Origin: an uncultured delta proteobacterium
GTDB lineage: Bacteria; Myxococcota; Myxococcia; Myxococcales; Myxococcaceae
Direction: 5' to 3'
NCBI GenBank assembly: GCA_963731795.1
Contig: CAVSWU010000003.1
Coordinates: forward strand, 838,216-902,215
Length of the DNA: 64,000 nucleotides
The translations under genes were made by a program, and so were the position numbers. The notes beneath the pieces are model-generated. The model saw nothing but the letters and a program-made list of their open reading frames with translations, was not told the origin of the DNA and did no database searches. Positions 26,082 through 48,284 of the stretch are shown one piece after another. Numbering within the stretch: the stretch's first letter is position 1; every line of letters starts with the position of its first letter.

Positions 26082-26090
26082 ACCCGCAGC

Positions 26091-29696: not shown

Positions 29697-29776
29697 GGTG
29701 TCGCTCTCCCTTGATGTTGAACTCGAGTGGCCGCGGTGGATGGGTGACACAGTCCATACACGTCTGGCGACCCGCC

Positions 29777-29802: not shown

Positions 29803-29823
29803 GACGCTTTCCACCTGGGACAA

Positions 29824-29991
29824 CTACAGGTGCACTGCGATGAGAGCACCCGCCATCACGCCCGTCTTCAGGCGGATCTTCAGAGCGCGATGCTCCGTCA
29901 CGACCTCCTGTTTGAGCTCGGTCGCGCTGCTCTCCTTCCTGGCCTCGGTTTCGGTCGCCATCGTTTCCTCCTGGTCTGCGTTCTTCTGCAT
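29824..29991 (-). CDS. Candidate RiPP precursor peptide (55 aa; 45 aa if translation starts at the second ATG, 29961).
   Basis: MQKNADQEETMATETEARKESSATELKQEVVTEHRALKIRLKTGVMAGALIAVHL. Both ATGs have Shine-Dalgarno sequences (GGTGGAGG, AGGAGG). The N-terminus is charged and helical, leader-like. The C-terminus is hydrophobic, with Gly/Ala and one His. It is co-directional with the RRE enzymes and the exporter. Confidence 0.5.
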   Translation of the reverse strand: MQKNADQEETMATETEARKESSATELKQEVVTEHRALKIRLKTGVMAGALIAVHL

Positions 29992-31803: not shown

Positions 31804-31964
31804 GAGTTCCTCCCTGGGTGAGCACCACTCCTCCCGGAAGGTGGCTACGGCTCCGCAAAATGGCGAGCGGACCCCAGGGCGGGCTCTCCACGTCAACGCC
31901 CTTCCCCATGGCGGCGGTTGCCAGCCCCCGCTCGGTACCCCACCTTCCTCCTGGTACGCCGACC

Positions 31965-34454
31965 ATGCGAATCCCTATTCCCGTCCGCCGCCTCCCGGCT
32001 CCGCTCGATGACGCCCATGGCCTCGACGCCGATGCGGTGCGCGAGAGGCGCGCGCGCTACGGGCCCAATGACGTGCTGGCGCGGCCTCGACGCTCGGGGC
32101 TCGCGGTGCTGCGCGAGACGGCCGGAGACCCGATGCTCTGGTTCCTCGTGGGAACGAGCGCGCTCTACCTCGTGCTGGGAGAGCGAACGGAGGGGCTGGT
32201 GCTGCTGCTGGCCATGGTCCCGCTGCTGGGCATGGATGCCTTCCTGCACCGCCGGACGCGTGCCTCCACGGAGGGCTTGCAGAGCCGCCTGGCCGCGCAC
32301 GCCACGGTGCTGCGCGATGGGCGCGAGCAGCAGGTGCCCGCGGATGAAGTGGTCGTGGGCGAGCTGGCACGGGTAGAGGCGGGCGAGTACTTCCCCGCGG
32401 ATGGAGTGGTCCTGCGCGGCGACGGCCTGCAAGCCGAGGAGTCCTCGCTCACCGGAGAGTCGCTGCCCGTGCGCAAGCGGCCGCTGCCCCGCCTGCCTCC
32501 GGGAGAAGAGCCGGCGGTGGAGGGACAGCACTGGGGGCTGGCCGGAACGCGGCTCCTGACCGGGACGGCCTGGGTGCGCATCGTCTTCACCGGGCAGGAC
32601 ACGTTCTACGGGGCCATCGTGCGCTCGGCCACGCAGGGTGGGCATGCGCGCACGCCGCTCCAGCAGGCCGTTGCCCACCTGGTTGCGGTGCTGATGGGCG
32701 TGGCCGCCATGCTGTGCGCGATGCTCGCGTTCGTGCGCTGGCACCAGGGCTTCGGGTGGATGGATGCGCTGCTGAGCGCGGCGACCCTGGGCGTGGCGGC
32801 ACTGCCCGAGGAGTTCCCGGTGGCCTTCACCTTCTTCCTGGGAGCCGGCGTCTACCGGCTGGCGCGGCGACAGGCCCTGGTGCGGCGCGCGGTATCCGTC
32901 GAAAACATCGGCCGTGTCACCTGCATCTGCTCGGACAAGACGGGCACGCTGACGGAGGGGCGCCTGCGGGTGGCCAGCGTGCTGCCCGCGCCGGGCGTCC
33001 AGGCCGACGAGCTGCTGCGGACAGCGGCGCTCGCCTCACGCGAGGAAGGAAGGGATCCGCTCGATGCCGCGCTGCTCGAAGAAGCCGCGCGCACTCTCTC
33101 CGGCGCGGCCCGCCCGAAGACCGAGGCCACCTTCCCCTTCACCGAGGAGCGCCAGCGTGAGACGGCGGTGGTGGAAGACGCGGAGGGACTCCTGCTCGCC
33201 GCCGTCAAGGGTGCGCCAGAGCGGGTGCTGGGCCTCTGCACGCTGGGGGCCGAGGACCGCGTGGCCTGGGAGCAGCGCGTGTCAGCGCTCGCGGGCGAGG
33301 GGCGCAAGGTCATCGCGTGCGCGAGCCAGCCTCTGGAGCCCGCATCCTGGCGAGGCGGTGAGCCGGAGCGAGGCTTTCACTTCCTGGGCCTGATGGCCTT
33401 CGAGGATCCGGTGCGCCCGGGGGTGCCGGAGGCGGTACGGGAGTGCCGCGAGGCCGGCCTGCGCACGGTGATGGTGACGGGCGATCACCCAGCGACGGCC
33501 TTGGCGGTGGCGCGCAGGCTGGGGCTCGGTGGGGAGCGGCCCCAAGTCCTCACCGGCGAGGAGCTGGAGGCGCGGCTGCACGAAGGGCAGGTGCCGCACG
33601 TGGACGTGGTGGCCCGCGCGGTGCCGGCGCAGAAGTACGCGCTGGTGACGGCGCTCCAGCGGCAGGGCGAGGTGGTGGCGACCACGGGGGACGGCGTGAA
33701 CGACGTGCCCGCGCTCCAGGCGGCCGACGTCGGCATCGCCATGGGGGAGCGAGGGACACGCAGCGCGCGCGAGGTGTCCTCCATCGTGCTGCTGGACGAC
33801 GACTTCGGCACGCTGGTGCGGGCCATCGCCGAGGGCCGTCAGCTCTTCCGCAACCTCCAGGGATGCTTCCTCTACCTGCTGCTCATCCACATCCCACTGG
33901 TGACAACGGCGGCGCTGCTGCCGCTGGCGGGCTATCCGCTCCTGTACCTGCCCATTCACATCGTCTGGCTGGAGTTGATCATCCACCCCACCGCGATGCT
34001 GGCCTTCCAGGCTGCGGCGCGCCCGGGGCGCCTGGAGCCGATGCGGCACCAGGGCCCCGCGCGCTTCTTCTCGGCGGCGGAGTGGGCCACCCTCATGCTG
34101 GTGGGCGCACTGGTCACGGTGGGGCTGGTGTGGAGCTACGACCAGAGCCTGGGCGCGGGGCGCGACGTGGAGCACGGGCGCGCGGTGGCGCTGGCCTCGC
34201 TCACGCTCGCGAGCGCCGTCTTCGCGGCGGTGCTCACCGGGTTGGGGACACGCACGGCCCGCTGGGTCTGCGCGATGACGTTGGGAGGCTCGGTGCTGCT
34301 CATCCAGGTGGAGCCCCTGGCGTCCTCCTTGAGGCTGCACCCCCTGCATGCGGATGACTGGGCGCGCGTCGTCGTGCGCGTGGGGGTGGCCTCTCTCCCG
34401 CTGGTGCTCTCGCGCCTGCGCTGGAGCAGGGTCGCCACGCCTCGTCCGCCGTGA
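31965..34454 (+). CDS. Cation-transporting P-type ATPase (P2/P3-like, with a Cation_ATPase_N domain).
   Basis: LDDAHGLDADAVRERRARYGPNDV...ICSDKTGTLTEG (DKTGT phosphorylation site)...VMVTGDHPATA...GDGVNDVPAL. There is no heavy-metal CPC motif. Confidence 0.85.
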   Translation: MRIPIPVRRLPAPLDDAHGLDADAVRERRARYGPNDVLARPRRSGLAVLRETAGDPMLWFLVGTSALYLVLGERTEGLVLLLAMVPLLGMDAFLHRRTRASTEGLQSRLAAHATVLRDGREQQVPADEVVVGELARVEAGEYFPADGVVLRGDGLQAEESSLTGESLPVRKRPLPRLPPGEEPAVEGQHWGLAGTRLLTGTAWVRIVFTGQDTFYGAIVRSATQGGHARTPLQQAVAHLVAVLMGVAAMLCAMLAFVRWHQGFGWMDALLSAATLGVAALPEEFPVAFTFFLGAGVYRLARRQALVRRAVSVENIGRVTCICSDKTGTLTEGRLRVASVLPAPGVQADELLRTAALASREEGRDPLDAALLEEAARTLSGAARPKTEATFPFTEERQRETAVVEDAEGLLLAAVKGAPERVLGLCTLGAEDRVAWEQRVSALAGEGRKVIACASQPLEPASWRGGEPERGFHFLGLMAFEDPVRPGVPEAVRECREAGLRTVMVTGDHPATALAVARRLGLGGERPQVLTGEELEARLHEGQVPHVDVVARAVPAQKYALVTALQRQGEVVATTGDGVNDVPALQAADVGIAMGERGTRSAREVSSIVLLDDDFGTLVRAIAEGRQLFRNLQGCFLYLLLIHIPLVTTAALLPLAGYPLLYLPIHIVWLELIIHPTAMLAFQAAARPGRLEPMRHQGPARFFSAAEWATLMLVGALVTVGLVWSYDQSLGAGRDVEHGRAVALASLTLASAVFAAVLTGLGTRTARWVCAMTLGGSVLLIQVEPLASSLRLHPLHADDWARVVVRVGVASLPLVLSRLRWSRVATPRPP

Positions 34455-34541
34455 CGAAAGGGGCGGCTCCGAAGCAGGCGGGCAAGAGTGCTCCTGGCCC
34501 ATCTCCTCTCCCTTGGGCTCGACCGTGCCCTACTCTTCTGT

Positions 34542-34964
34542 ATGTCACTCGAACGCTTCTGTCGGAAACAGGTGGCCTCCGCCCTGGCAACCGAGACGGT
34601 GCAGGCGGCAGCCGAGCGGATGACCCAGCAGCACGTCGGTGCCCTCGTCATCGTGGACGGTGAGGGACGGCCGGTCGGCATCCTGACGGACCGGGACATC
34701 GTCTGCCGCGTCCTGAACGAGCGGCGCGATCCCAGCGCCACGTCCATTCAGGAGGTGATGAGCGCCGACCCCGTGGTGGCCCACATGAACGACCGGATCG
34801 ACGAGGCGGCCTTCGCCATGAACCAGAAGGGCGTGCGGCGGCTCCCGGTCATCAACGCCAGCGGCAAGGTCATCGGCATGGTATCGCTCGATGATCTCCT
34901 CGTGCTGTTCGCCTCCGAGCTGGGCCAGACCGTGGGCGCGGTGAGGATGAACCGCGGCCCGTAG
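34542..34964 (+). CDS. CBS-domain pair protein.
   Basis: VGALVIVDGEGRPVGILTDRDIV...VRRLPVINASGKVIGMVSLDDL, two CBS motifs. Confidence 0.75.
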   Translation: MSLERFCRKQVASALATETVQAAAERMTQQHVGALVIVDGEGRPVGILTDRDIVCRVLNERRDPSATSIQEVMSADPVVAHMNDRIDEAAFAMNQKGVRRLPVINASGKVIGMVSLDDLLVLFASELGQTVGAVRMNRGP

Positions 34965-34970: not shown

Positions 34971-35639
34971 CTAGGCTTGGGAGGGCTGCATCCCCAGCGA
35001 GGTTTCCGCGCGCGCCAGCTCGAGCAGGCGCACCACCTCTTCATCTGGAACCTGCTGGAAGTCCTCGTACCAGGCCCCGATGGCATACATGGCGGGCGTG
35101 TCGAACACGCAGACGATGTCATCCGCGAGCTCCTGGAGCTCTTCGAGGGACTGGGACGCGGCCACGGGGACGGCGAGCACGATCTTCCTCGGCCGGGCAC
35201 TCCGCAGCGACTGGATGGCTGCCCGGACGGTGCCCCCGGTGGCAATCCCATCATCCACGAGGATGACCGTCCGCCCCTCGACTCGAGGCGGCGGCTGGCC
35301 CCTGCGGAGCCGCTGCGCGCGCTCGGCCACCTCCGCCGTCTTCCTGAGGACGATCTCCCGCACCTCCGCAGGAGAAGCGCCTACCTCCTCCACCGACTCC
35401 GCGTTGAGGTAGAGGATGCCTCCTTCCGCGACCGCGCCGAGCCCGAACTCCTGGAAGCCCGGGGCTCCCACCTTCCGGACCACCCAGATATCCATGGGGG
35501 CATTGAGGGCCTTGGCCACCTGGTAGGCGACCGGCACCCCTCCTCTTGGGAGCCCGAGCACGATAGGCGCCTCGTCCTTGTACCCGAGCAGCCGTGAGGC
35601 GAGCTGCCGGCCCGCTTCCTCTCGATTCGAGAAGTGCAT
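34971..35639 (-). CDS. Phosphoribosyltransferase (type I PRTase) family protein.
   Basis: MHFSNREEAGRQLASRLLGYKDEAPIVLGLPRGGVPVAYQVAKAL...TVILVDDGIATGGTVRAA, the PRPP-binding motif VDDxxxTGxT. Confidence 0.7.
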   Translation of the reverse strand: MHFSNREEAGRQLASRLLGYKDEAPIVLGLPRGGVPVAYQVAKALNAPMDIWVVRKVGAPGFQEFGLGAVAEGGILYLNAESVEEVGASPAEVREIVLRKTAEVAERAQRLRRGQPPPRVEGRTVILVDDGIATGGTVRAAIQSLRSARPRKIVLAVPVAASQSLEELQELADDIVCVFDTPAMYAIGAWYEDFQQVPDEEVVRLLELARAETSLGMQPSQA

Positions 35640-35770: not shown

Positions 35771-36034
35771 TCAAAGCCCGGCGTGCTGGGTGCCGAGCCT
35801 CTCCTGGAGGTAGTCGACACACGCCTCGATCGTCGTGAGGCGCCCGTAGTCGCCCTCGGGGATGGTGAGGGAGAGGCTCTGGGCAAGCGCGATGATGAAC
35901 TGGAGCAAGTCGAACGAGTCGATGTCGAGCTGCTCCCGCAGCGGCTCGTCCTGGCGCAGGGCCGCGGGGTCCAGCTCCGGGGCCACCGTGGCCAGGGCAT
36001 CGAGCACGGCCTTCATCAATATCTCGCGGGTCAT
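35771..36034 (-). CDS. Acyl carrier protein.
   Basis: 87 aa with EQLDIDSFDLLQFIIALAQ, the phosphopantetheine Ser in a DSxD/L motif. Translationally coupled to the upstream E2 gene. Confidence 0.75.
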   Translation of the reverse strand: MTREILMKAVLDALATVAPELDPAALRQDEPLREQLDIDSFDLLQFIIALAQSLSLTIPEGDYGRLTTIEACVDYLQERLGTQHAGL

Positions 36035-37254
36035 AGCTTCTCCGGCTCCTGCAGCAGGCGCTCCACGCGCGCCAGGAAGGCGGCTCCCCGGTGGCCATCG
36101 CTCGCACGGTGATCCGCCGAGAGGCTCGCGACGACGAGGGGCCGGGGGACGCAGCGGCCCTCCACCACCCAGGGCACCTCCCGCACGGAGCCGAACCCGA
36201 CGATGGCGACCTGCGGGGGAAAGATGATGCCGAGCACGCGGTCGGCGCCTGGGTCCCCCAGGCTGGTGACGGTGAGGGTCGAGTCCGCCAGCTCCGAGCT
36301 ACGGAGAGCTCCGTGGCGCGCGCGCTGGATCAGATCGCTCAGCTCGCGCATCAACGTGCCCAGGGGCTTGTCCGGCACGTCGTGTAGCGCCGGCACCATC
36401 AGCCCTCCCTGCCGCAGCGAGACGACCACGCCCAGGTGCACCGCCTGGGATGGGTGGAAGGCGCCTTCCCGCCAGAAGCCGTTCAGCTCGGGGAACTGCC
36501 GCACGGCGAGCGCCACCGCCTTCAGGAAGAGCACGGACGGGAGCATCCGCTCAGTCATGGGCAGGCGCTCGTTCTGCTCGCGCAGCCAGGCCAGCGCCCG
36601 CCCCATGTCGATGCGGGTATCGAGGTAGTAGTGAGGAATCTCCCGCTTCGAGCGGGTCATCGCCGCCGCGATGGCCTGGCGCATCGCCGCGTGACGAGCC
36701 TCCTCGGGCGGGACGGGAGGAGCCAGTGACGGAGCAGAGGGAGCCGCGGCGTGAGCAGCGCGCTCCACATCCTCGAGGTTGATGGCGCCACCGGGGCCCG
36801 TCCCGGACACACGTGCCAGGTCCACTCCGAGCCGAGCCGCCGCCGCTCGGGCCGCGGGAGAGGCACGAGGGCGGTGCGCGCCTGGAGCTGGCATCTCCCC
36901 TCGAATCTCCGGCTGCGCGGGCGACGGCCTCCCCGCGGGTGGAGCAGGCCTGGATTCGGCGGCGGCCCGCGCGGGAGGAGGCGGAGCGGCGGGATGCGCC
37001 ACGGGAGCCGCGGCCTCACCCTCGGCGCGCACGAGCGCCATCACCGCCCCCACCGGCACCTGGCTGCCGGGCTCCACCCGCAGCGCCTGGACCGTGCCGC
37101 TCTCGAAGATCTCCACTTCGATGATGCCCTTCTGCGTCTCGACGAGCGCGACGATGTCGCCGCGCTTCACCGTGGCGCCGGGCCTCACCCGCCACTCCAC
37201 CAGCTTCCCGGCCTCCATGTCCGCGCCCAGCGAGGGCATCCGGAACTCACCCAT
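36031..37254 (-). CDS. 2-oxoacid dehydrogenase E2 component (dihydrolipoamide acyltransferase).
   Basis: Lipoyl domain ([10 protein letters not shown]), E3-binding-like region ([23 protein letters not shown]), and the catalytic domain ending ...[16 protein letters not shown] (DHRxxDG). Confidence 0.85.
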
Positions 37255-38257
37255 GGCGCTCCCCCAGCATGCGCCTCGCCGCGGCGGCGATGGACTCCGG
37301 CTGTGGCAGCGCCGCGTCCTCCAGGTGCTTGGGATAGGGGATGGGCACCTCCGCCGTGCACACGCGCTGGACCGGCGCGTCCAGCTCGTAGAAGGCGTGC
37401 TCCATGATGCGGGCGCTGATCTCGGCGGACAGGCTCCCGCTGCGCCAGCCCTCGTCCACGATGACCGCTCGCCGCGTGCGCGTCACCGAGCCCAGGATCG
37501 TCTCGTCATCGAGTGGCCGCAGCGTCCGCAGGTCCACCACCTCCGCTTCAATCCCCTCGCGCGCCAGCAACTCCGCCGCCGCCAGCGTCTTGTGCAGGCT
37601 GCCGCCATAGGTGATGAGGGACACGTCCCGCCCTGGCCGGCGGATGGCCGCGTGGGAGATCTCCACCGCGCCCGCCCCCTCGGGCAGCTCGCCCTCCATC
37701 GCGTAGAGCAAGGCGTGCTCGAAGATGAGCACGGGGTCCGGCTCCTGGAGCGCGCTCCACAGCATGCCGCGCGCATCCTCCACCGTGGCTGGAGCCAGGA
37801 TCTTGATGCCGGGGATGTGGGCGAACCAGCCCTCGAAGCTGTGCGAGTGCTGCGCGGCCACCTGCCTCCCAGCGCCCGTGGCCAACCGGATGACCACCGG
37901 GACGCTGAGCTGACCACCGGACATGTGCCGCAGCGTGGCGGCGTTGTTGACGATCTGATCCAGCGCGAGCAGCCCGAAGTTCACGGTCATGATCTCCACG
38001 ATGGGCCTCATGCCCCCCATGGCCGCGCCGATCCCCGCTCCCACGAAGGCGGACTCGGACAAGGGAGTGTCCCGGACCCGCTCGGGGCCGAACTCGGCCA
38101 GGCAGCCCTTGCTCACGGCGTAGCAGCCGCCGTAGGCGCCCACGTCCTCGCCCATGAGGAACACGCGCGGATCACGCTGGAGCGCCTCACGCACGGCGCT
38201 CCGGACCGCCTCGCGGTACGTCATCCGCACCAGGGCCTTGCGCTCATCGGGAGGCAT
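37247..38257 (-). CDS. 2-oxoacid (pyruvate/acetoin) dehydrogenase E1 component, beta subunit.
   Basis: [57 protein letters not shown], the transketolase-like pyrimidine-binding domain. Confidence 0.85.
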
Positions 38258-39254
38258 CGCGCGCCTCCCGAGGCGTGTAGACATCACGGGTCAGATCCTC
38301 CACCGGCTCGAGGGTGCCAGCCTCGGCGAAGTCCAGTGCCTCGGAGACCTCGGCCTCCACCTCCCGCTCCAGGCGCTCCAGGTCTCCCGGGGAGAGCAGC
38401 CCCGCCTCACGCATCCACTTGATGAAGAGGATGATGGGATCGCGCAGCCTCCACTGCTCCACCTCGCGCTTGTCGCGGTAGAGCTCCGGATCGTACATGG
38501 AGTGGGCCCGGAAGCGGTAGGTGCGCAGTTCGAGGAAGGCGGGCCCCGCGCCGGACCTCACCGCCGCCGCGGCGCGCTGGACCGCGCCTGCCACCGCCAG
38601 CGCATCCATCCCATCCACCGACTCGGCCGGCAGCCCGTAGCTGGAGGCCCGCGCCGCCAGCTCCACCCGCCCCTCATGCCGCTGGAGCGCAGTGCCCATG
38701 GCGTAGAGGTTGTTCTCGCAGAGGAAGAGGACCGGCAGCTTCCAGAGCGTGGCGAGGTTGAGCGACTCGTGGAACTCCCCCTCGGCCACGGCGCCGTCTC
38801 CGAAGATGGCGGCGGTCACCCGGGGCCGCCGCATCATCTGATCCGCGAGCGCCAGCCCCAGGGCGAGCGGCAGCCCCCCGGCCACGATGGCGTTGCCCCC
38901 GAAGAAGCGCCGGGACACGTCGAACAGGTGCATGGAGCCCCCGCGCCCCCGGCTGCACCCCTCCGCCTTCGCGAACATCTCCGCCATGATGGCCCGGGCG
39001 GGCACGCCGCGCGCCAGGGCATGCCCGTGCTCGCGGTAGTGCGAGACGATGGCGTCGTCCGGCTGGAGCGCGCGCAGGGCTCCCACCGCGCAGGCCTCCT
39101 CGCCGATATAGAGGTGCAGGAAGCCGCGGATCTTCCCCGCGCTATAGGCCTGGGCGCTCGCCTCCTCGAAGCGACGGATGAGCTGCATCTGCCGCAGCCA
39201 GGAGAGCGCCTCATCCCGGGTGAGCGGGAGCCGCGGAGCCGGCGCCTCGCTCAT
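38244..39254 (-). CDS. 2-oxoacid (pyruvate/acetoin) dehydrogenase E1 component, alpha subunit (TPP-binding).
   Basis: [31 protein letters not shown]...[31 protein letters not shown], the TPP GDG...NN motif. The start overlaps the acyl-CoA ligase stop. Confidence 0.85.
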
Positions 39255-41005
39255 GGCGAGGCCTCCAGAGTGGAGGTGTCTCCCTCGGGCAGGCCCAGCT
39301 CGCGGGCCTTGAGCAGCCGGCGCATGATCTTCCCCGAGCGCGTGCGCGGCAGCGTGGGCAGGAACTCCAGCTCCTTGGGGGCCACGACAGCGCCCAGCCG
39401 CGTGCGCGCGTGGGCGAGCAGCTCCCGGCGCAGCGCCTCCCCGGGGGTGAAGCCCTCCTTGAGCGAGACGAAGGCCTTCACCACCTCGCCGATGGTGGGC
39501 TCGGGCCGGCCGATGACGCCGGCTTCGGCGACCGCGGGGTGCTCGAGCAGAGCGCTCTCCACCTCGAACGGACCGATGAGGTGGCCCATCGACTTGATGA
39601 CGTCGTCGGCCCGCCCCACGAACCAGAAGTAGCCGTCCTCGTCCTTCTTGGCGAGATCCCCGCTGAGATACCAGCCGCTGGCGAAGCACTTGCGGTAGCG
39701 CTCCTCCTCGTGGAGGTAGCCGCGGAACATGGAGGGCCAGCCAGGGCGCAGCGCGAGCTCACCCTCGCGGTTGGGCTCGTCCACCGGCTCCACGCTCCCG
39801 TCGGGCAGGTGCCGGACGATGGCAGCCTCCACCCCCGGCAGCGGCCGGCCCATGGAGCCCGGCTTGATGTCCATGGAGGCGTAGTTGGCCACCATGATCC
39901 CGCCGGTCTCCGTCTGCCACCAGTTGTCGTGGATGGGCAGTCCGAGCGCGCGCTGCCCCCAGAGGACGGCCTCCGGGTTGAGGGGCTCACCCACGCTGGC
40001 GATGAAGCGCAGGTCGCTGAGGTTGAAGCGGCGGGGTAGCGCCTCGCCAGCCTTCATCAGCATCCGCACCGCCGTGGGCGCGGTGTACCAGACCGTGACG
40101 CGCTCGTCCTGGAGGATGCGGTACCAGCGCTCGGCATCGAAGTCGGCCTCGTCCACCACGCAGGTGAGGCCGTGCGTCAGCGGGGAGATGATGCCGTACG
40201 AAGTCCCCGTCACCCAGCCGGGATCCGCGGTGCACCAGAAGATGTCGTCCGGGTGGAAGTCCAGCACGAGCGTCCCGGTGACATGGTGGGCCAGCACCGC
40301 CCGGTGGACGTGGATGGCGCCCTTGGGAGTGCCCGTGGTGCCACTGGTGAAGTGCAGCAGGGCCATGTCCTCCGGGGAGGTGGCGCCGATCTCGTAGGTG
40401 TCGCTCGCCCGCGACAGGAGCGCCTGGAGATCCTGGGTGCCCTCCCCCGCCTCCCCGTCCACGAGGAGCACGTGCTTCAGCTCCGGGAGGGAGTCACGCA
40501 GCGGCGCCACCTTCTTGCGGTAGAGGGCGACTGTCGTCACCAGCACGCGGGCGTCGCCGAGCCGCAGGCGGGCCTGGATGGGCTCGGGGCCGAAGGCTGA
40601 GAAGAGAGGACAGAAGACGGCCCGGTGCTTGAGCGTGCCGAGCGCGGCGATGTAGAGCTCGGGGATGCGCCCCAGCAGCGAGAAGACGCGATCCCCCGGC
40701 TGAAGGCCCAACCCGGCGAGCAGGTGAGCGAAGCGGCTCGTCCAGGCGGAGAGCTCCGCGTAGGTGAAGCTCCTCCGCTCGCCATGACGCCCCAGCCAGC
40801 GCAGCGCCTGGCGCCCTCCCTGCCCATCCCGGCAGTGCCGGTCCATGGCCTCATGGGCGATGTTGAGGCCCCGGCCACCGGGGAGCCCGGCCAGCTCGCG
40901 CTCGGCGGCGGCCCAGGAGAACGAGGACCGCGCCGCCTCGTAGCTGGGCATGTTGGGCGCGCCGTGCCCGTCCGGGCGCGGCTTGGTGATCTTGCGCACG
41001 TCCAT
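39251..41005 (-). CDS. AMP-forming acyl-CoA synthetase (acetate/propionate-CoA ligase-like).
   Basis: [19 protein letters not shown]...WWQTETGG...[26 protein letters not shown]...[11 protein letters not shown], the AMP-binding family motifs. Confidence 0.85.
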
Positions 41006-41110: not shown

Positions 41111-41614
41111 TCACAGCTTGTAGCCGAGCTTGCGCAGCAGCGCCTTGCGCTCGAGCACATCGGACTCCCGCTCCACCCCGAGCGGTGGCTCGCCGTCCAC
41201 GACGCCCAGGATGCCGCGGCCCCGCTCCGTCCGGGCGATCAGCACCTCGACGGGGTTGGAGGTGGCGCAGAAGATGCGGCACACCTCGGGGACCTGCTTG
41301 AGCGGAGTGAGCACGTTCACCGGGAAGCCGTCGCGCAGGAAGACGATGAAGGAGTGGCCCGCGCCGATGGCCAGCGCGTTCCGCGTCGCGAGCTCCACGA
41401 GCTCCGGATCGTTCCCCGAGCGCCGGATGAGCCGGACCCCGGAGGCCTCGCAGAAGGCCAGGCCGAACTTGAGGTGGGGTGAGGTCCCCGCGAGCACCTC
41501 GTGGACGTCCTCGACCGTCTTGATGAAGTGCGACTGGCCGAGGATGACGTTCATCTCCTCGGGCTTGTCGATGGGGACTGTCAGCAACTCCACCGGACAC
41601 CTCCTCGAAGCCAT
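41111..41614 (-). CDS. Adenosine-specific kinase-like (PF04008-like) small protein. The family call is tentative.
   Basis: MASRRCPVELLTVPIDKPEEMNVILGQSHFIKTVEDVHEVLAG..., 167 aa. Assigned from memory of the family N-terminus. Confidence 0.4.
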   Translation of the reverse strand: MASRRCPVELLTVPIDKPEEMNVILGQSHFIKTVEDVHEVLAGTSPHLKFGLAFCEASGVRLIRRSGNDPELVELATRNALAIGAGHSFIVFLRDGFPVNVLTPLKQVPEVCRIFCATSNPVEVLIARTERGRGILGVVDGEPPLGVERESDVLERKALLRKLGYKL

Positions 41615-41724: not shown

Positions 41725-42933
41725 ATGAGGGCTCGGGAAATGACTCCGAACATCCAAGGCACGGGGCGAACGGTTGGTGGCACTCCCTCGGCTCCCTCGG
41801 GGGCGATCTCCCTCTTCCTCTGCGGCGACGTGATGACCGGGAGGGGGATCGACCAGGTGCTGCCCCACCCGGTCCCTCCTCACCTCTACGAGTCCTATGT
41901 GCGTGACGCCCGGGACTACGTCGCGCTGGCGGAGGAGCGGAACGGCTCGATCGCCAAGCCTGTCAGCTTCGAATACATCTGGGGAGACGCGCTCGCCGCG
42001 CTGGAGCAGGCCGCACCGGACGTGCGGCTGATCAACCTGGAGACCAGCATCACCACGAGCGAGGAGTGGTGGCCGGATAAGGGCATCCACTACCGCATGA
42101 ACCCGGCCAACGCCGCGTGCCTCACGGCGGCCCGTATCGACTGCTGCGCGCTGGCGAACAACCACGTGCTGGACTGGGGATACCCGGGGCTGAGGGAGAC
42201 GTTGGCGACCCTGCGGAATCTGGGAATCGCCACGGCGGGGCTGGGCGAGAACCTCGAGGTGGCACAGCGGCCCGCTGTGCTGGGAGTGGGAGCCAGAGGC
42301 CGAGTCATCGTGTTCTCGTTCGGAGAGGACGGCAGCGGGATTCCGCCCGAGTGGGCGGCAGGGGTGGACAGGCCGGGATTGGACTTCCTGCCGGACCTGT
42401 CTCCCTCCACGGCGCGGCGCATCGGCGAGCGAGTACGGTCCGTCAAGCGCGAGGGGGATATCACCGTCGCCTCCATCCACTGGGGTGGCAACTGGGGCTA
42501 TGCGGTGCCACCGGCGCAGCGAGCCTTTGCCCACGCGCTCATCGACGAGGCGGGCGTGGACGTCATCCACGGCCACTCCTCCCACCACCCCCGAGGCATC
42601 GAGGTCTACCACGGGAGGCTCATCCTCTACGGCTGCGGGGACTTCTTGAATGACTACGAGGGCATCAGCGGCTACGAGGCGTTCCGGGGTGACCTGACGT
42701 TGATGTACTTCGCGTCGGTAGACCCGGCGAGCGGTCAGCTCACCCGCCTGCGCATGCTCCCGATGCAGCTGCGCCAGCTCCAGCTCCATCGAGCCTCGGA
42801 CCGTGACGCCGCGTGGCTGTGCGGCGTCATGGAACGAGAGGGCGGTCGCCTGGGAACCCAGACGCGCCGGGCCGAGGACGGGGCGCTCCTCCTCCGGTGG
42901 GAGGGTGGGACTCGCGGCCTGGCAGACGAGTGA
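41725..42933 (+). CDS. CapA/PGA_cap family metallophosphoesterase-like protein (poly-γ-glutamate synthesis CapA family).
   Basis: ISLFLCGDVMTGRGID...INLETSIT...CALANNHVLDWG...VIHGHSSHHPRGIE, the PGA_cap motifs. Confidence 0.75.
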   Translation: MRAREMTPNIQGTGRTVGGTPSAPSGAISLFLCGDVMTGRGIDQVLPHPVPPHLYESYVRDARDYVALAEERNGSIAKPVSFEYIWGDALAALEQAAPDVRLINLETSITTSEEWWPDKGIHYRMNPANAACLTAARIDCCALANNHVLDWGYPGLRETLATLRNLGIATAGLGENLEVAQRPAVLGVGARGRVIVFSFGEDGSGIPPEWAAGVDRPGLDFLPDLSPSTARRIGERVRSVKREGDITVASIHWGGNWGYAVPPAQRAFAHALIDEAGVDVIHGHSSHHPRGIEVYHGRLILYGCGDFLNDYEGISGYEAFRGDLTLMYFASVDPASGQLTRLRMLPMQLRQLQLHRASDRDAAWLCGVMEREGGRLGTQTRRAEDGALLLRWEGGTRGLADE

Positions 42934-43076: not shown

Positions 43077-43577
43077 ATGGCCATCATCAAAAGAGGTGAA
43101 GTTGTCCCCACGGCTCGCCGCATGCTTCAGTGGGATCCATTCCAGACCATGCGCGAGATGCTGAACATGGAGCCGCTGCCCCAACTGCTCCCGGAGCTCC
43201 TGCGCGGCCCGGAGAGGATGGTGGGGTATGTCCCCGCCTTCGATGTCTGGGAGACCAAGGACGCCATCATGTTCAAGGCGGACGTGCCGGGGCTGCGTGA
43301 GCAGGACATCGACATCAACGTCACCAGCAACCGCCTCACCATCTCTGGCAAGCGCGAGGCCGAGCAGGTCTCGGAGTCGGATACGTACTACTGCTCCGAG
43401 CGTTCGTCGGGCGTGTTCACGCGGACCTTCACGCTGCCGGAGGGCATCAACGCCGACCAGATCCGCGCGGATCTCAAGGAAGGCATCCTCACGGTGACCG
43501 TGCCCAAGACCGCGGGGGCCCAGCCGAAGCGCATCAACGTCCAGGGCACGGCGGCCGGCGGGAAGGTGAAGGCCTAG
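43077..43577 (+). CDS. Small heat-shock protein (Hsp20/α-crystallin family).
   Basis: VPAFDVWETKDAIMFKADVPGLREQDIDINVTSNRLTISGKRE...SGVFTRTFTLPEGINADQIRADLKEGILTVTVPK. AGGAG SD upstream. Confidence 0.88.
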   Translation: MAIIKRGEVVPTARRMLQWDPFQTMREMLNMEPLPQLLPELLRGPERMVGYVPAFDVWETKDAIMFKADVPGLREQDIDINVTSNRLTISGKREAEQVSESDTYYCSERSSGVFTRTFTLPEGINADQIRADLKEGILTVTVPKTAGAQPKRINVQGTAAGGKVKA

Positions 43578-46366: not shown

Positions 46367-47830
46367 TCAGCCCTTGAGCACCGCGAGGGGCACCAGCCGC
46401 GCCACCTTCCGGGCGATGCCCGCGGTCTCCACCGCGTCCACCACGCGATCGACGTCCTTGTAGGCCGTGGGGGCCTCCTCCGCGAGCTCCGCATTCGAGG
46501 GGCACTCCACGATGATGCCCTGGGCGTTCAGCGCCTTGCGCAGCTCCGCGCCCACCACCTGCCGCTTCGCGGCGGCGCGGCTCATCTGGCGGCCCGCGCC
46601 ATGGCAGGCGCTGCTCAGCGAGACGGCCTGGGACTCGCTCCGCCCCACCAGCACGAAGGAGGCCGTGCCCATGCTGCCGGGGATGAAGACCGGCTGGCCG
46701 ACCTCCTGGTAGGCCGCGGGCAGCTCCGGGTTCCCCGGGCCGAACGCCCGTGTGGCGCCCTTGCGGTGCACGCAGAGCTGGTGCTCCCCGTACGTTTCCA
46801 GCTTGGCGATGTTGTGCGCCACGTCGTAGACGATCCGAGCCCAGGTCTCGTCCCGAGCACCGAGCCTCCGGTTGAACGCCTCTCGCACGCGGTGGGTCAG
46901 TACCTGCCGGTTGGACCAGGCGAAGTTGGCCGCGGCGCACATGGCCGCGTAGTAGTCCTGCCCCTCCTTCGAGGAGAACGGCGCGCAGGCGAGCTGCCGG
47001 TCCACCAGCCGGATACCTTCACGGCTCAGCGCCCGATCCATCTCCCGCACGGAGTCCGTGCAGACCTGGTGCCCCAGCCCGCGAGAGCCGGTGTGGATGA
47101 GGATCGTGAGCTGCCCCTCGAACAGCCCGAACGCCGCGGCGGCGCTGGCATCATGGATGCGCTCCACGCGCTGCAGCTCGATGAAGTGATTTCCGCCGCC
47201 GAGCGTCCCGAGCTGATCGTGCCCTCGCTCACGGGCCCGGACGGTGACCTTGTCCGCCCTGGCGCCGGGGAGCTGGCCACCCGCCTCGATGTGGGCGAGA
47301 TCCTCCACCGCCCCCAGCCCCAGGACACGCACCACGTAGGGCACGCCTTCTTCGAGGACCCGGTCGAGCTCATCCATGCTCAAGGCCAACCGGCCGTGGC
47401 GACCAAAGCCCGTGGGGATGCTCCGGGCCAGATCGTGGGCCAGCTCCGGCAGGACGTCCTTCACCTCATCATGGCGGAGCCCCGTGGTGAGCAGCCTCAC
47501 GCCACAGTTGATGTCGAAGCCGATCCCGCCTGGGGAGATGACCCCATGGGGCATCAAGGTGCCCGCCACGCCGCCCACGGGGAAGCCGTAGCCCTCGTGC
47601 ATGTCCGGCATGCCGATAGCGAAGCCCTGGATGCCCGGCAACGTCGTCACGTTGACGAGCTGGGTCATGCTGCGATCCCGAGACATCTGCCGGAGCAGCT
47701 CCTCGTCCGCCACGATCCGGGCCGGCACGCGCATGTCCGAGCGAAAGCTCCGGTCCAGTTCATAGAGCGCTGGACCGAGCTGGCGGAGAAGCCGCGGGAG
47801 CCGCTGCTGGACTTCGACGATGGGTTCCAT
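46367..47830 (-). CDS. rtcB: RNA-splicing ligase RtcB.
   Basis: GMPDMHEGYGFPVGGVAGT...DINCGVRLL...CHGAGR, the RtcB metal-binding and GMP-His motifs. Confidence 0.9.
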   Translation of the reverse strand: MEPIVEVQQRLPRLLRQLGPALYELDRSFRSDMRVPARIVADEELLRQMSRDRSMTQLVNVTTLPGIQGFAIGMPDMHEGYGFPVGGVAGTLMPHGVISPGGIGFDINCGVRLLTTGLRHDEVKDVLPELAHDLARSIPTGFGRHGRLALSMDELDRVLEEGVPYVVRVLGLGAVEDLAHIEAGGQLPGARADKVTVRARERGHDQLGTLGGGNHFIELQRVERIHDASAAAAFGLFEGQLTILIHTGSRGLGHQVCTDSVREMDRALSREGIRLVDRQLACAPFSSKEGQDYYAAMCAAANFAWSNRQVLTHRVREAFNRRLGARDETWARIVYDVAHNIAKLETYGEHQLCVHRKGATRAFGPGNPELPAAYQEVGQPVFIPGSMGTASFVLVGRSESQAVSLSSACHGAGRQMSRAAAKRQVVGAELRKALNAQGIIVECPSNAELAEEAPTAYKDVDRVVDAVETAGIARKVARLVPLAVLKG

Positions 47831-47864
47831 CCTCACCTCGGAGCGGCCGAAGCCGCGGTGGCGG

Positions 47865-48284
47865 TCAGACGTCGAGCACGACGGTGGCGATGAAGCCGTC
47901 CTCGTGCTCGTGGATCTCCAGCCCATGGAAGGTGGCGGCCTTCACCGCGGTCTTGAGCACCGAAGGGGTGAAGCCACGGATCCGGGCGTGCAGCCCTGTC
48001 TCGGAGACGCGGTCCACGTCGAAGTCCGTGTAGACGCGCTTTCTCGCATCCGAGCGGGAGATGAGCTCATTGAGCCAGTCGACGAGCAGGGCCTCGGTGT
48101 CCGCCGCCTCGAGGGTGATTTCCTCTTGCTCCTCTCCGGGCAGCTCCTCGGGATGCTCCTCGCCGAGCATGAGCTCGGCCAGCGCGTACCCTGCCTCCTC
48201 GAAGAGCTCCGGCAGGTCCGTGCCCTTGATGCGGATCTGGACCTCTCCGGTGTGCGGCTCGAACTGGTAGGTGCCCGGCTCCAC
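47865..48284 (-). CDS. Archease (RtcB activator).
   Basis: YQFEPHTGEVQIRIKGTDLPELFEEAGYALAELM...ATFHGLEIHEHEDGFIATVVLDV, the archease fold signature, immediately upstream of rtcB. Confidence 0.8.
   Translation of the reverse strand: MEPGTYQFEPHTGEVQIRIKGTDLPELFEEAGYALAELMLGEEHPEELPGEEQEEITLEAADTEALLVDWLNELISRSDARKRVYTDFDVDRVSETGLHARIRGFTPSVLKTAVKAATFHGLEIHEHEDGFIATVVLDV

What the first reader, a model, noticed from the sequence alone, without database searches (positions are those of the whole stretch)
35771..41005. E3-less 2-oxoacid dehydrogenase (E1α/E1β/E2) translationally coupled to an acyl-CoA ligase and an ACP
Five minus-strand genes overlap start/stop codons (acyl-CoA synthetase, E1α, E1β, E2, ACP) with no dihydrolipoamide dehydrogenase. 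An E2 delivering an acyl group next to a dedicated ACP and an AMP-ligase looks like a starter-unit or acyl-ACP-generating module (for lipid or secondary metabolism) rather than a canonical PDH/acetoin complex. An Sfp-type PPTase lies at 54217-55017.
Basis: partly seen in the sequence, partly recalled or inferred. Interest (0 to 1): 0.55.

Follow-up and report, generated by a model that had tools for sequence, protein, structure and literature searches.

The report
E3-less pyruvate dehydrogenase with dedicated ACP
Five tightly coupled genes (acetate-CoA ligase, pyruvate-dehydrogenase-type E1α, E1β and E2, and a small acyl carrier protein) form a cassette that recurs almost unchanged in many bacterial phyla, usually among stress or dormancy genes, and its E2 has lost a residue that normally grips coenzyme A, so it may pass acetyl groups to the carrier protein instead.

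Summary
On the minus strand, 35771-41005 encodes acsA, E1α, E1β, E2 and an ACP joined by start/stop overlaps. No E3 lies anywhere in the 64-kb window. The ACP is not a chance neighbour: 55 of 56 related loci with enough upstream DNA carry the same five genes in the same order, across at least ten phyla and on plasmids of cultured Rhodococcus, Cupriavidus, Burkholderia, Streptomyces, Leisingera, Methylocystis and Desulfotalea. None carries E3. Flanking genes vary but are of stress or dormancy type (USP, Hsp20, RtcB/archease, phosphoribosyltransferase, CBS, nitroreductase, P-type ATPases). There are no KS, AT or NRPS genes nearby, and the Sfp-type PPTase 13 kb away is not linked. E1α and E1β score as PDH and the ligase as acetate-CoA ligase. 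The E2 clade differs from ordinary E2s in two ways. The Arg that salt-bridges the CoA 3'-phosphate is Leu or Ile in 70 of 70 members. The hydrophobic C-terminal "knob" is shortened and charged. My best reading, at moderate confidence, is an accessory stress-island PDH whose E2 acetylates its own holo-ACP. The "secondary-metabolite or lipid starter" context is not. I found no paper describing this cassette.

The parts
39251..41005 (-). acsA: AMP-forming acetate-CoA ligase (584 aa), first gene of the cassette
   Evidence: NF003313 scores 906 bits against a cut-off of 729. The best solved relative is the 572-aa AcsA 9g79_B at 564 bits. Equivalents of S. enterica Acs W413/W414, V386, R584 and K609 are invariant in 52 cassette ACSs, and R194 is Lys in 50 of 52. 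R526 is replaced by Leu or Met.
38244..39254 (-). E1α (336 aa), ThDP-binding subunit of PDH type
   Evidence: PF00676. TIGR03182 PDH_E1_alph_y scores 432.7 against a cut-off of 393.85. The closest solved structure is human PDH E1α. The GDG...ENN ThDP motif is visible in the translation. The start ATG overlaps the ACS stop codon as ATGA.
37247..38257 (-). E1β (336 aa)
   Evidence: PF02779 + PF02780. NF006667 scores 410.9 against a cut-off of 321. About 75% identical across phyla.
36031..37254 (-). E2 (407 aa): one lipoyl domain, one peripheral-subunit-binding domain and a catalytic acyltransferase domain. It belongs to a distinct clade.
   Evidence: PF00364, PF02817 and PF00198. It scores below every NCBIfam E2 cut-off; the best is 213 against 445. 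The lipoyl Lys42, the IPHYYL motif and DHRxxDG are invariant in 64 family members. Leu224 replaces the CoA 3'-phosphate-binding Arg, and the C-terminus ends ...LQEPEKL.
35771..36034 (-). Stand-alone AcpP-like acyl carrier protein (87 aa); its start overlaps the E2 stop codon (ATGA)
   Evidence: PF00550. The Asp39-Ser40 attachment site is invariant in 26 family members. The profile is closest to FAS-type and mitochondrial ACPs in the PDB. It follows E2 in nearly all related loci.
34971..35639 (-). Phosphoribosyltransferase-family protein, 131 bp downstream of the ACP. A recurrent neighbour and part of the stress-island context.
   Evidence: PF00156. PRTase lies near the cassette in about 9 related loci and directly after it, together with CBS, in Burkholderia sp. 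JP2-270.
34488..34964 (+). CBS-pair protein (context)
   Evidence: PF00571, two copies. Recurs near cassettes.
31818..34454 (+). P-type cation ATPase (context)
   Evidence: The translation shows the P-type ATPase motifs DKTGT and GDGVND. P-type ATPases recur in about 10 related loci.
41111..41614 (-). PF04008 'adenosine-specific kinase' family protein, 105 bp upstream of acsA on the same strand. Possibly co-transcribed.
   Evidence: PF04008 at E = 1.9e-72. A homologue lies next to the ACP in L063.
41725..42933 (+). CapA/PGA_cap family protein (context)
   Evidence: PF09587. A CapA homologue lies near the cassette in L076. Rv0574c of the M. tuberculosis DosR regulon is listed in PMC5309233, and placing it in the CapA family rests on my own knowledge.
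43077..43577 (+). Hsp20/alpha-crystallin (context)
   Evidence: PF00011. Recurs near cassettes.
43574..46351 (-). Second P-type cation ATPase (context)
   Evidence: Translation. Homologues occur in related loci.
46367..48284 (-). RtcB RNA ligase (46367-47926) and archease (47865-48284). The most frequent neighbours of the cassette.
   Evidence: Homologues identified by tblastn lie beside cassettes in about 12 loci. Pfam PF01139 and PF01951 are assigned to the L001 and L003 neighbours.

Best explanation
This is a self-contained, horizontally mobile five-gene cassette (acsA, pdhA-like E1α, E1β, E2, acp). It is embedded here in a stress or dormancy-type island spanning about 31.8-48.3 kb of the window.

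It encodes an accessory pyruvate-dehydrogenase-type complex of the mitochondrial/alphaproteobacterial kind. The complex has no E3 of its own, and it comes with an AcsA-type acetate-CoA ligase and a private AcpP-like carrier protein.

Most likely mechanism:
1. E1αβ decarboxylates pyruvate and reductively acetylates the lipoyl arm of E2.
2. The E2 catalytic domain then passes the acetyl group to the phosphopantetheine thiol of the co-translated holo-ACP rather than, or in preference to, free CoA. The product is acetyl-S-ACP.
3. The dihydrolipoyl arm is re-oxidised by the host's general Lpd, or by another thiol acceptor.
4. The host's general PPTase and lipoylation enzymes supply the cofactors.
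5. AcsA supplies or salvages acetyl thioester from acetate at the same metabolic node.

Shown by the data:
- Gene content, coupling and order.
- Cross-phylum conservation and the absence of E3.
- Intact catalytic residues.
- Loss of the CoA 3'-phosphate-binding Arg and of the hydrophobic C-terminal knob in this E2 clade.

Inferred only:
- Pyruvate as the substrate.
- Acetyl transfer to the ACP.
- The source of E3.
- The physiological role, which I take to be acetyl-thioester supply or handling during oxygen limitation or dormancy.
For: 1. Family assignments and junction overlaps.
2. 55 of 56 related loci keep ACS-E1α-E1β-E2-ACP collinear. They come from Myxococcota, Gemmatimonadota, Planctomycetota, Verrucomicrobiota, Acidobacteriota, Chloroflexota, Nitrospirota, Actinomycetota and Alpha-, Beta- and Gammaproteobacteria. 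Identities are ACS 62-74%, E1β about 75%, E2 about 50% and ACP about 48%. E2 and ACP overlap in 69 of 80 loci.
3. No conserved gene lies directly before acsA or after acp, so the unit is autonomous.
4. Starting from the E2 side, plasmid hits are bimodal. E2s at 41-55% identity are cassette E2s, and wherever the record is annotated an ACP gene follows them. E2s at or below 36% identity are ordinary, and several are followed by lpdA. The ACP therefore occupies the slot where lpdA sits in ordinary operons, and both operon types occur in Leisingera caerulea.
5. The column of A. vinelandii E2p Arg450 is Leu in 69 and Ile in 1 of 70 cassette E2s, preceded by Trp in 68 of 70. It is Arg or Lys in 7 of 8 ordinary E2s and Arg in human E2p. 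Arg450 forms the salt bridge to the CoA 3'-phosphate (10.1101/2020.07.24.212647). A holo-ACP pantetheine has no 3'-phospho-ADP.
6. Cassette E2s end P-E-x-L. Ordinary E2s carry a longer hydrophobic tail that forms the knob for trimer-trimer contacts. This could leave the acceptor site open to a protein substrate.
7. There is a precedent for a ThDP E1-like enzyme plus a lipoyl/E2 protein loading an ACP: QncN/QncL/QncM and SclQ1-4 (PMC6335953).
8. The lipoyl Lys, the DHRxxDG motif and the ACP Ser are invariant. The Desulfotalea plasmid copy is followed by a lipoate-protein ligase.
9. The context is stress islands in cultured bacteria, with USPs, Hsp20, nitroreductase, PRTases, CBS, BON, an erythromycin-esterase family protein and a GAF kinase with response regulator.
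Against: - No experiment and no structure of a complex exists; acyl transfer to the ACP is inferred.
- The ACS keeps the basic residues that contact the CoA nucleotide (R584 equivalent invariant, R194 equivalent Lys) and scores as an equivalog acetate-CoA ligase. Free CoA is therefore clearly used somewhere in the module, and the link between ACS and ACP is unexplained.
- One ordinary comparator E2 (Streptomyces, L101) has Val at the Arg450 column, so that Arg is not absolutely required in E2s that have no ACP partner.
- No downstream consumer of acetyl-ACP is conserved next to the cassette.
They are validated only by reproducing the literature numbering R450/S558/H610/N614.
- The dormancy or hypoxia role rests on gene neighbourhood only. 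A DosR-box search in the Rhodococcus locus was negative.
Confidence: 0.42

Rival explanations
1. An ordinary accessory PDH plus ACS, both making acetyl-CoA. The ACP would be a non-catalytic partner, either a structural or regulatory subunit of the E2 core or a sensor of acyl status, and not the acetyl acceptor.
For: E1α and E1β pass the PDH model cut-offs and the ACS passes the acetate-CoA ligase cut-off. The E2 catalytic residues are intact. Tight 1:1 translational coupling of E2 and ACP suits a stoichiometric subunit. The ACS keeps its CoA contacts.
Against: The ACP attachment Ser is invariant, which would be unnecessary for a purely structural role. The E2 clade has specifically lost the CoA 3'-phosphate-binding Arg. 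I know of no precedent for an ACP as a structural subunit of a 2-oxoacid dehydrogenase.
Confidence: 0.2
2. A fermentative survival module. Pyruvate is oxidised to an acetyl thioester, and the AMP-forming ACS runs in reverse (acetyl thioester + AMP + PPi gives acetate + ATP). The ACP would serve as a private pantetheine carrier shuttling acetyl groups from E2 to the ACS, giving substrate-level phosphorylation in anoxic dormancy.
For: The cassette is autonomous and always contains ACS, E1, E2 and ACP. The context is hypoxia or stress type, with ppsA, pfkB and USPs nearby. It also occurs in strict anaerobes such as Desulfotalea. ATP formation by an AMP-forming Acs is documented in Syntrophus aciditrophicus (PMC4992975, PMC13404658). 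The cassette ACSs replace the SeAcs R526 equivalent with Leu or Met.
Against: There is no evidence on direction. The ACS retains CoA-nucleotide contacts rather than obvious ACP-docking changes. E3 and an electron sink are still needed. PPi and AMP supply is speculative.
Confidence: 0.13
3. A pyruvate-driven thiol reductant system. E1 loads electrons onto the E2 lipoyl arm. The dihydrolipoyl group is then re-oxidised not by E3 but by thiol peroxidases or disulfide targets, giving NAD-independent antioxidant defence, and the acetyl group is parked on the ACP or CoA.
For: E3 is consistently absent. In one variant the cassette ACP is fused to an OsmC-family domain with both Cys residues, directly after an E2 with the usual 4-nt overlap (P0247/L091). 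Lipoylated proteins of 2-oxoacid dehydrogenase complexes are the biological reductants of Ohr/OsmC peroxidases (PMC5384416).
Against: Only one fusion lineage was found, on 2 short contigs, and no OsmC lies in the other 94 loci. A shared host E3 is the norm for many complexes, so the absence of E3 is weak evidence.
Confidence: 0.08
4. One reading: a starter-unit or extender-unit module feeding a polyketide, non-ribosomal peptide or special lipid pathway, activated by the nearby Sfp-type PPTase.
For: The architecture (ThDP E1 + lipoyl E2 + ACP) matches QncN/L/M and SclQ1-4. A PPTase lies at 54217-55017. The nearest non-cassette relatives of the ACP sit between KS genes (L064, L080).
Against: No KS, AT, NRPS or lipid genes occur in the 64-kb window or beside the cassette in 80 loci. 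The PPTase is unlinked, appearing in 1 of 80 loci. The cassette is conserved across at least 10 phyla at 50-75% identity with stress-gene neighbours, unlike a natural-product cluster. E1 is PDH-type, not transketolase-like.
Confidence: 0.07
5. An acetoin (acoABC-type) or branched-chain 2-oxoacid dehydrogenase, with the ACP as an irrelevant neighbour.
For: E1αβ/E2 operons lacking E3 exist among acetoin systems. The E2 scores below all PDH E2 cut-offs.
Against: E1α passes the PDH equivalog cut-off and its closest solved relative is human PDH E1α. The AcoC model NF011457 matches only the lipoyl domain. The ACP is conserved and coupled in 55 of 56 loci. An Enterococcus E1αβ/E2 operon, read here as acetoin-type because it has lpdA first and a 2,3-butanediol dehydrogenase gene after E2, has an ordinary E2 with Lys at the Arg450 column, a hydrophobic tail and lpdA.
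Confidence: 0.03

Closest known systems
QncN/QncL/QncM of quinocarcin biosynthesis and SclQ1-4 of scleric acid biosynthesis (glycolyl-ACP formation)
   Same: A ThDP-dependent E1-like enzyme, a lipoyl-bearing E2-type acyltransferase and a small ACP are encoded together. The acyl group formed on the lipoyl arm is delivered to the ACP rather than to CoA, and no E3 is in the cluster (PMC6335953).
   Different: Those systems sit inside natural-product clusters, take a C2 unit from a ketose phosphate by transketolase-like chemistry, and come with a PPTase (SclP). The present cassette has PDH-type E1αβ that pass the PDH model cut-offs and an acetate-CoA ligase. It has no biosynthetic genes and occurs in stress islands across many phyla. 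Sequence relatedness to QncL and QncM was not tested.
Canonical heterotetrameric-E1 pyruvate dehydrogenase complex (mitochondrial, alphaproteobacterial, Gram-positive type)
   Same: E1α and E1β are above the curated PDH cut-offs. E2 has a lipoyl domain, a PSBD and a catalytic domain with DHRxxDG. The closest solved relatives are human E1α and mammalian E2p.
   Different: No lpdA is present. An ACP gene sits where lpdA usually follows E2, and an ACS gene heads the operon. E2 scores below all E2 cut-offs, the CoA 3'-phosphate Arg is replaced by Leu, and the C-terminal hydrophobic knob is shortened. Some members have 2-3 tandem PSBDs.
Actinobacterial trimeric E2p (C. glutamicum AceF, M. tuberculosis DlaT)
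   Same: It sets a precedent that changes in the C-terminal 3-10 helix abolish trimer-trimer contacts and reduce the E2 core to trimers (10.1101/2020.07.24.212647).
   Different: There the cause is a three-residue Phe-containing insertion and the CoA-binding Arg480 is retained. Here the tail is truncated and charged and the Arg is lost. The oligomeric state of the cassette E2 is untested.
Citrate lyase and malonate decarboxylase systems (a dedicated ACP primed by an AMP-forming acetate:SH-ACP ligase)
   Same: Conceptually, an enzyme complex has a private carrier protein and an acetate-activating AMP-forming ligase encoded together. This comparison rests on my own knowledge.
   Different: Those ACPs carry a 2'-(5''-phosphoribosyl)-3'-dephospho-CoA group and belong to other families. 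The ligase here is a bona fide AcsA-type acetate-CoA ligase, and there is no lyase or transferase subunit.
M. tuberculosis DosR dormancy regulon (as a type of gene neighbourhood)
   Same: The families flanking the cassette here and elsewhere include RtcB, archease, CapA-like, CBS, PRTase, P-type ATPase, Hsp20, nitroreductase, USP and ribosome hibernation factor. By my own matching they correspond to DosR-regulon genes. PMC5309233 lists Rv2631 as RtcB, Rv0571c as a putative PRTase, Rv2032/Rv3131 as nitroreductases, Rv0079 as a ribosome-associated factor, and also Rv2630, Rv0574c, Rv2626c and Rv1997. Equating the other families with those genes rests on my knowledge.
   Different: To my knowledge the M. 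tuberculosis regulon does not contain this cassette. No DosR box was found in the Rhodococcus locus, and regulation in Myxococcota is unknown.

Membership tests
Pyruvate dehydrogenase complex, heterotetrameric E1 type | E1α with a ThDP-binding fold that scores above the curated PDH E1α model cut-off | tested here: met
   TIGR03182 scores 432.7 against 393.85, and PF00676 matches at E = 6.7e-82.
Pyruvate dehydrogenase complex, heterotetrameric E1 type | E1β above the curated PDH E1β cut-off | tested here: met
   NF006667 scores 410.9 against 321.
Pyruvate dehydrogenase complex, heterotetrameric E1 type | E2 with a lipoyl-Lys domain, a PSBD and a catalytic DHRxxDG motif | tested here: met
   PF00364, PF02817 and PF00198 match. 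Lys42 and D381-H382-R383 are invariant in the family.
Pyruvate dehydrogenase complex, heterotetrameric E1 type | E2 reaches a curated E2p (acetyltransferase) model cut-off | tested here: not met
   The best score is TIGR01349 at 213.5 against 445, and all 20 models are below cut-off.
Pyruvate dehydrogenase complex, heterotetrameric E1 type | The E2 acceptor site binds CoA through the conserved Arg that contacts the 3'-phosphate (AvE2p Arg450) | tested here: not met
   The position is Leu224 in the window and Leu or Ile in 70 of 70 cassette E2s. It is Arg or Lys in 7 of 8 ordinary E2s; the role of the residue is.
Pyruvate dehydrogenase complex, heterotetrameric E1 type | A dedicated or shared E3 (dihydrolipoamide dehydrogenase) | tested here: inconclusive
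   There is no E3 in the window or within ±8 kb in 83 loci. A shared E3 elsewhere in the genome cannot be excluded.
Pyruvate dehydrogenase complex, heterotetrameric E1 type | Pyruvate as the 2-oxoacid substrate | not testable with these tools
   Only inferred from model scores and the closest solved relatives.
Acetoin dehydrogenase (AcoABC/L) | An AcoC-type E2 or acetoin-type context (acoR/acoX, AcoL, butanediol dehydrogenase) | tested here: not met
   NF011457 matches only residues 4-170, the lipoyl part. No such neighbours were found. The Enterococcus acetoin-type operon is different.
QncN/L/M-type ThDP/lipoyl/ACP acyl-ACP generators | E1-like, lipoyl-E2 and ACP genes adjacent, with no E3 | tested here: met
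   The architecture of the reference system is from PMC6335953.
QncN/L/M-type ThDP/lipoyl/ACP acyl-ACP generators | Embedded in an NRPS/PKS or other natural-product cluster that consumes the acyl-ACP | tested here: not met
   No biosynthetic genes are in the window or flanking 80 cassettes.
QncN/L/M-type ThDP/lipoyl/ACP acyl-ACP generators | Sequence orthology to QncL and QncM, and acyl transfer to the ACP demonstrated | not tested
AMP-forming acetate-CoA ligase (AcsA type, NF003313) | Score above the curated equivalog cut-off, the acetate-pocket Trp, the catalytic Lys and the CoA-nucleotide contacts | tested here: met
   906 bits against 729. Equivalents of W414, V386, K609 and R584 are invariant, and R194 is Lys in 50 of 52. 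The role of R191/R194 is from PMC13404658.
Type II acyl carrier protein (PF00550) | A four-helix ACP with the conserved DSx phosphopantetheine-attachment Ser | tested here: met
   PF00550 scores 26.2 against 20.8. D39-S40 are invariant in 26 sequences. It is below the NCBIfam AcpP cut-offs, at 39.8 against 70.
DosR-type dormancy regulon | Control by a DosR-family regulator through its palindromic box | tested here: inconclusive
   A GAF kinase and response regulator lie next to the cassette in Rhodococcus DK17. The GGGAC-N4-GTCCC search gave 1 match against 3.25 expected. Only gene-family content matches.

The most novel reading that the evidence does not exclude
The cassette is a CoA-independent, self-contained energy module for dormancy. 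The E2 has lost its CoA 3'-phosphate contact because holo-ACP is its obligatory acceptor. The ACP acts as a second swinging arm that carries acetyl groups from E2 to the AcsA-type enzyme. That enzyme runs backwards to make ATP from AMP and PPi, so five genes would convert pyruvate to acetate, CO2 and ATP without drawing on the cellular CoA pool. In some lineages the reduced lipoyl arm would be discharged onto thiol peroxidases instead of E3.
Probability: 0.12. Interest if true: 0.9.

Novelty: new variant of a known kind. Interest (0 to 1): 0.66.

Why it matters
2-oxoacid dehydrogenase complexes are textbook E1/E2/E3 machines that hand acyl groups to CoA. Here a PDH-type complex is permanently coupled to a carrier protein and an acetate ligase, never carries an E3, and has an E2 acceptor site altered at a known CoA contact. 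The cassette is spread by horizontal transfer through at least ten phyla and onto plasmids, and it is repeatedly parked among stress and dormancy-type genes.

If the E2 really acetylates the ACP, this would be the first ACP-coupled PDH outside natural-product pathways. It would also define a new, widespread piece of stress or dormancy metabolism at the pyruvate/acetate node. The idea is directly testable in tractable hosts such as Rhodococcus, Cupriavidus, Streptomyces and Myxococcus. At present RefSeq labels the five genes individually (acsA, pdhA, 'alpha-ketoacid dehydrogenase subunit beta', 'dihydrolipoamide acetyltransferase family protein', 'acyl carrier protein'), which hides the unit.

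Tried and rejected
- **E3 search.** I searched for the redox-disulfide and HxHPT..E motifs in six frames of the window and 83 loci and found none. Pfam scans of the other large window ORFs gave only housekeeping or unrelated genes.
- **PPTase linkage.** Rejected. The intervening genes are unrelated, and only 1 of 80 loci has a PPTase nearby.
- **Conserved partner genes.** I looked directly upstream and downstream of the cassette and found none. Dodecin, GYD and BON neighbours are restricted to a few Gemmatimonadota-like loci.
- **Regulatory signals.** No shared motif was found among island intergenic regions. There were no sigma-70-like promoters, and terminators were at background level. A DosR-box search in the Rhodococcus locus was not enriched.
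- **Rosetta-stone fusions.**
  - No E2-ACP fusion appeared among the top 120 E2 homologues.
  - The apparent fusion in L021 and the long ACP ORFs in L011, L063 and L073 come from long-read or low-quality MAGs and were not trusted.
  - The ACP-GNAT fusions P0278 and P0325 are not preceded by an E2. The context of P0310 was not resolved.
  - Only the ACP-OsmC fusion follows an E2, and OsmC is absent from all other loci.
- **Size of the ACP family.** The figure of '590 loci' from the ACP scan overstates the cassette, because about 40%-identical ACPs in Lentisphaerae are ordinary KS-flanked ACPs.
- **Literature.** Eight full-text searches and a reading of the B. cenocepacia lxa-locus paper found no description of this cassette. 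Gerasimova et al. 2011 was not held.
- **Organism name.** Not recoverable. The nearest locus is a Myxococcaceae MAG (L004).

Full report
**1. The observation.**

| Gene | Coordinates | Size |
|---|---|---|
| ACS | 39251-41005 | 584 aa |
| E1α | 38244-39254 | 336 aa |
| E1β | 37247-38257 | 336 aa |
| E2 | 36031-37254 | 407 aa |
| ACP | 35771-36034 | 87 aa |

The junctions, read from the DNA:
- ACS/E1α: ATGA.
- E1α/E1β: a 14-nt overlap, or a 19-nt gap if E1β starts at the second ATG.
- E1β/E2: ATGGGTGA.
- E2/ACP: ATGA.

Pfam and NCBIfam identify the products.
- The ACS is an acetate-CoA ligase: NF003313 scores 906 bits against a cut-off of 729.
- E1α is PDH type: TIGR03182 scores 433 against 394.
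- E1β is PDH type: NF006667 scores 411 against 321.
- E2 has lipoyl, E3_binding and catalytic domains but is below every curated E2 cut-off.
- The last product is a PP-binding protein with the motif LDIDSFD.

No E3 is present in the 64-kb window. The signature motifs are absent in six frames, and Pfam scans of the other large ORFs found none. The PPTase at 54217-55017 is real.

**2. The ACP belongs to the unit.**

The ACP has a modest family of close relatives with an invariant Asp-Ser attachment site.

Contigs that carry 50-54% identical ACPs have the same five genes. A scan of one genome per species with the ACP profile returned 80 best loci from:
- Myxococcota
- Gemmatimonadota
- Planctomycetota
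- Verrucomicrobiota
- Acidobacteriota
- Chloroflexota
- Nitrospirota
- Actinomycetota
- Alpha-, Beta- and Gammaproteobacteria and others

I ran tblastn with the window proteins against these loci. Identities were ACS 62-74%, E1α about 65%, E1β about 75%, E2 about 50% and ACP about 48%, always in the same order and on the same strand.

Of the 56 loci with at least 5.3 kb upstream of the ACP, 55 have the complete collinear cassette. E2 and ACP overlap in 69 of 80 loci. No locus has E3 motifs. No gene is conserved directly before acsA or after acp, so the five genes form an autonomous unit.

The association also holds from the E2 side. A tblastn of the window E2 against plasmids is bimodal. Hits at 41-55% identity are cassette E2s, and where the records are annotated an ACP gene follows. 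Hits at or below 36% are ordinary E2s, several followed by lpdA. In Leisingera caerulea a BCKDH operon reads E1α-E1β-E2-lpdA, while the cassette on another plasmid reads acsA-E1αβ-E2-acp. The ACP therefore sits where lpdA normally sits.

**3. Context.**

In the window the cassette lies in a block from about 31.8 to 48.3 kb that contains:
- two P-type ATPases
- a CBS protein
- a phosphoribosyltransferase
- a PF04008 protein
- CapA
- Hsp20
- RtcB and archease

This block is flanked by unrelated genes on both sides, with housekeeping genes further out.

Annotated plasmids of cultured bacteria show the same cassette.

| Organism | Neighbours of the cassette |
|---|---|
| Rhodococcus sp. DK17 pDK1 | USP, a GAF histidine kinase with response regulator, otsB, pfkB, ppsA |
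| R. qingshengii | BON, two Hsp20, three USPs, an erythromycin-esterase family protein |
| Burkholderia sp. JP2-270 | PRTase and CBS directly after the ACP (as in the window), pncB, nitroreductase |
| Streptomyces fungicidicus | four USPs, Hsp20, nitroreductase, pncB |
| Leisingera | USP, ppsA |
| Methylocystis | USP |
| Desulfotalea psychrophila | sits on a conjugative plasmid and is followed by a lipoate-protein ligase |

These families match, by my own reading, genes of the M. tuberculosis DosR regulon as listed in PMC5309233. That is an analogy of content only. A DosR-box search in the Rhodococcus locus was negative, and I found no shared regulatory motif in the window.

There are no KS, AT, NRPS or fatty-acid genes. 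The PPTase is 13 kb away behind unrelated genes, and a PPTase is near the cassette in only 1 of 80 loci.

**4. What the proteins say.**

*ACS.* Its closest solved relative is a 572-aa AcsA (564 bits). In 52 cassette ACSs the equivalents of S. enterica Acs W413/W414 and V386 (acetate pocket), K609 and R584 are invariant. R194 is Lys in 50 of 52. The R526 equivalent is Leu or Met. R191 and R194 contact the nucleotide end of CoA (PMC13404658). The ligase therefore looks like a true acetate-CoA ligase.

*E1α.* It is closest to human PDH E1α.

*E2.* The lipoyl Lys, the IPHYYL motif and DHRxxDG are invariant, so the enzyme should be active. Two clade-specific changes stand out.

- The first is at the column of A. 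vinelandii E2p Arg450, whose guanidinium salt-bridges the CoA 3'-phosphate (Arg480 in C. glutamicum E2p; 10.1101/2020.07.24.212647).
  - That column is Leu224 in the window, and Leu in 69 and Ile in 1 of 70 cassette E2s, preceded by Trp in 68 of 70.
  - Eight ordinary E2s taken from plasmids have Arg (6), Lys (1) or Val (1), and human E2p has Arg.
The A. vinelandii one reproduces the literature numbering R450, S558, H610 and N614 and aligns Arg450 to the column.
- The second is at the C-terminus.
  - Cassette E2s end P-E-x-L, three mostly charged residues after the conserved Pro.
  - Ordinary E2s end P-x-x-[ML]-[LVIF]-[VLIF] or longer.
  - That hydrophobic 3-10 helix is the 'knob' of the trimer-trimer contacts that build 24- and 60-mer cores.

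Some cassette-clade E2s carry two or three tandem PSBDs.

**5. Interpretation.**

A holo-ACP offers the same pantetheine thiol as CoA but has no 3'-phospho-ADP. An E2 that has discarded the 3'-phosphate contact, may have a more open assembly, and is co-translated 1:1 with an ACP is most simply read as an E2 that acetylates that ACP.

The only documented systems of this architecture, QncN/L/M and SclQ1-4, do exactly that for glycolyl units (PMC6335953).

My best model (confidence 0.42) is an accessory, stress-island PDH-type complex that turns pyruvate into acetyl-S-ACP. It would use host Lpd, PPTase and lipoylation enzymes, with AcsA working at the same acetate/acetyl node.

What remains unexplained:
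- how the CoA-using ACS connects to the ACP
- what consumes acetyl-ACP

The rivals are laid out separately:
- the ACP as a non-catalytic partner of an ordinary PDH
- a reverse-ACS ATP-yielding module (precedent in Syntrophus, PMC4992975)
- a lipoyl-based reductant system, suggested by a single ACP-OsmC fusion directly after an E2 together with the lipoyl dependence of Ohr/OsmC (PMC5384416)
- an acetoin or BCKDH complex

**6. Novelty.**

All five proteins belong to known families, and RefSeq annotates them individually. Full-text searches found no description of the cassette, of its E3-less, ACP-coupled architecture or of the E2 substitutions. This is absence within the searchable library, not proof of absence.

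I rate it a new variant of a known kind: a 2-oxoacid dehydrogenase complex that is ACP-coupled as in QncL/M but sits in a primary-metabolic and stress context. It is widespread and experimentally tractable.

Noticed in passing
window 20085-29849 (minus strand): Three paralogous 'iron-containing redox enzyme' (Haem_oxygenas_2/TENA-like) proteins lie at 26091-27647, 27675-28670 and 28704-29849. Directly downstream on the same strand are an HlyD-family protein (24903-26081) and two ABC transporters (22211-24175 and 20085-22214). This looks like an export-coupled modification cluster, possibly for a peptide natural product.
   Followed up: partly
window 30197-31363 (+): A single ORF fuses an Asp/Glu/hydantoin racemase domain to a GNAT acetyltransferase domain. 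It lies at the edge of the stress island.
   Followed up: no
window 41111-41614 (-) and L063:1207-1683: A PF04008 'adenosine-specific kinase' family gene sits 105 bp upstream of acsA on the same strand. A homologue lies next to the ACP in a Desulfuromonadales locus. It may be an occasional sixth member of the operon.
   Followed up: partly
P0067, P0068, P0102 (three copies); P0091, P0139, P0165 (two copies): Some cassette-clade E2s carry two or three tandem peripheral-subunit-binding domains after a single lipoyl domain. To my knowledge ordinary E2s repeat the lipoyl domain and not the PSBD.
   Followed up: partly
L091:518-1237 (protein P0247): A cassette ACP is fused in frame to an OsmC-family peroxidase domain with both catalytic Cys residues. 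It starts with the usual 4-nt overlap after an E2. It was seen on two short metagenomic contigs only.
   Followed up: yes
L086:6857-8854 (Leisingera caerulea plasmid): In Leisingera the cassette E1α and E1β are fused into one 665-aa protein, annotated pdhA.
   Followed up: no
L087:10336-11346 (Desulfotalea psychrophila large plasmid): On a conjugative plasmid of a sulfate reducer, a lipoate-protein ligase gene directly follows the cassette ACP. This implies that the lipoyl cofactor is needed even in this anaerobe.
   Followed up: no
window 39251-41005; alignment of 52 cassette ACSs: The residue equivalent to S. enterica Acs Arg526, on the loop after the hinge, is Leu or Met in all cassette ACSs. 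It is Arg in S. enterica Acs and in the closest solved AcsA (9g79_B). Its significance is unknown.
   Followed up: partly
L092:8001-10449; L093; L094: Relatives of the ACP outside the cassette are fused to GNAT domains. In L092 the fusion is followed by an AMP-binding enzyme. This appears to be a different ACP-ligase-acetyltransferase system.
   Followed up: partly
window 54217-55017 (-): An Sfp/HetI-like PPTase scores below the HetI cut-off (152 against 370). It sits between a 197-aa ORF with no Pfam family and a metallo-beta-lactamase-fold gene. It is probably the genome's broad-specificity PPTase and could still be the enzyme that activates the cassette ACP in trans.
   Followed up: partly
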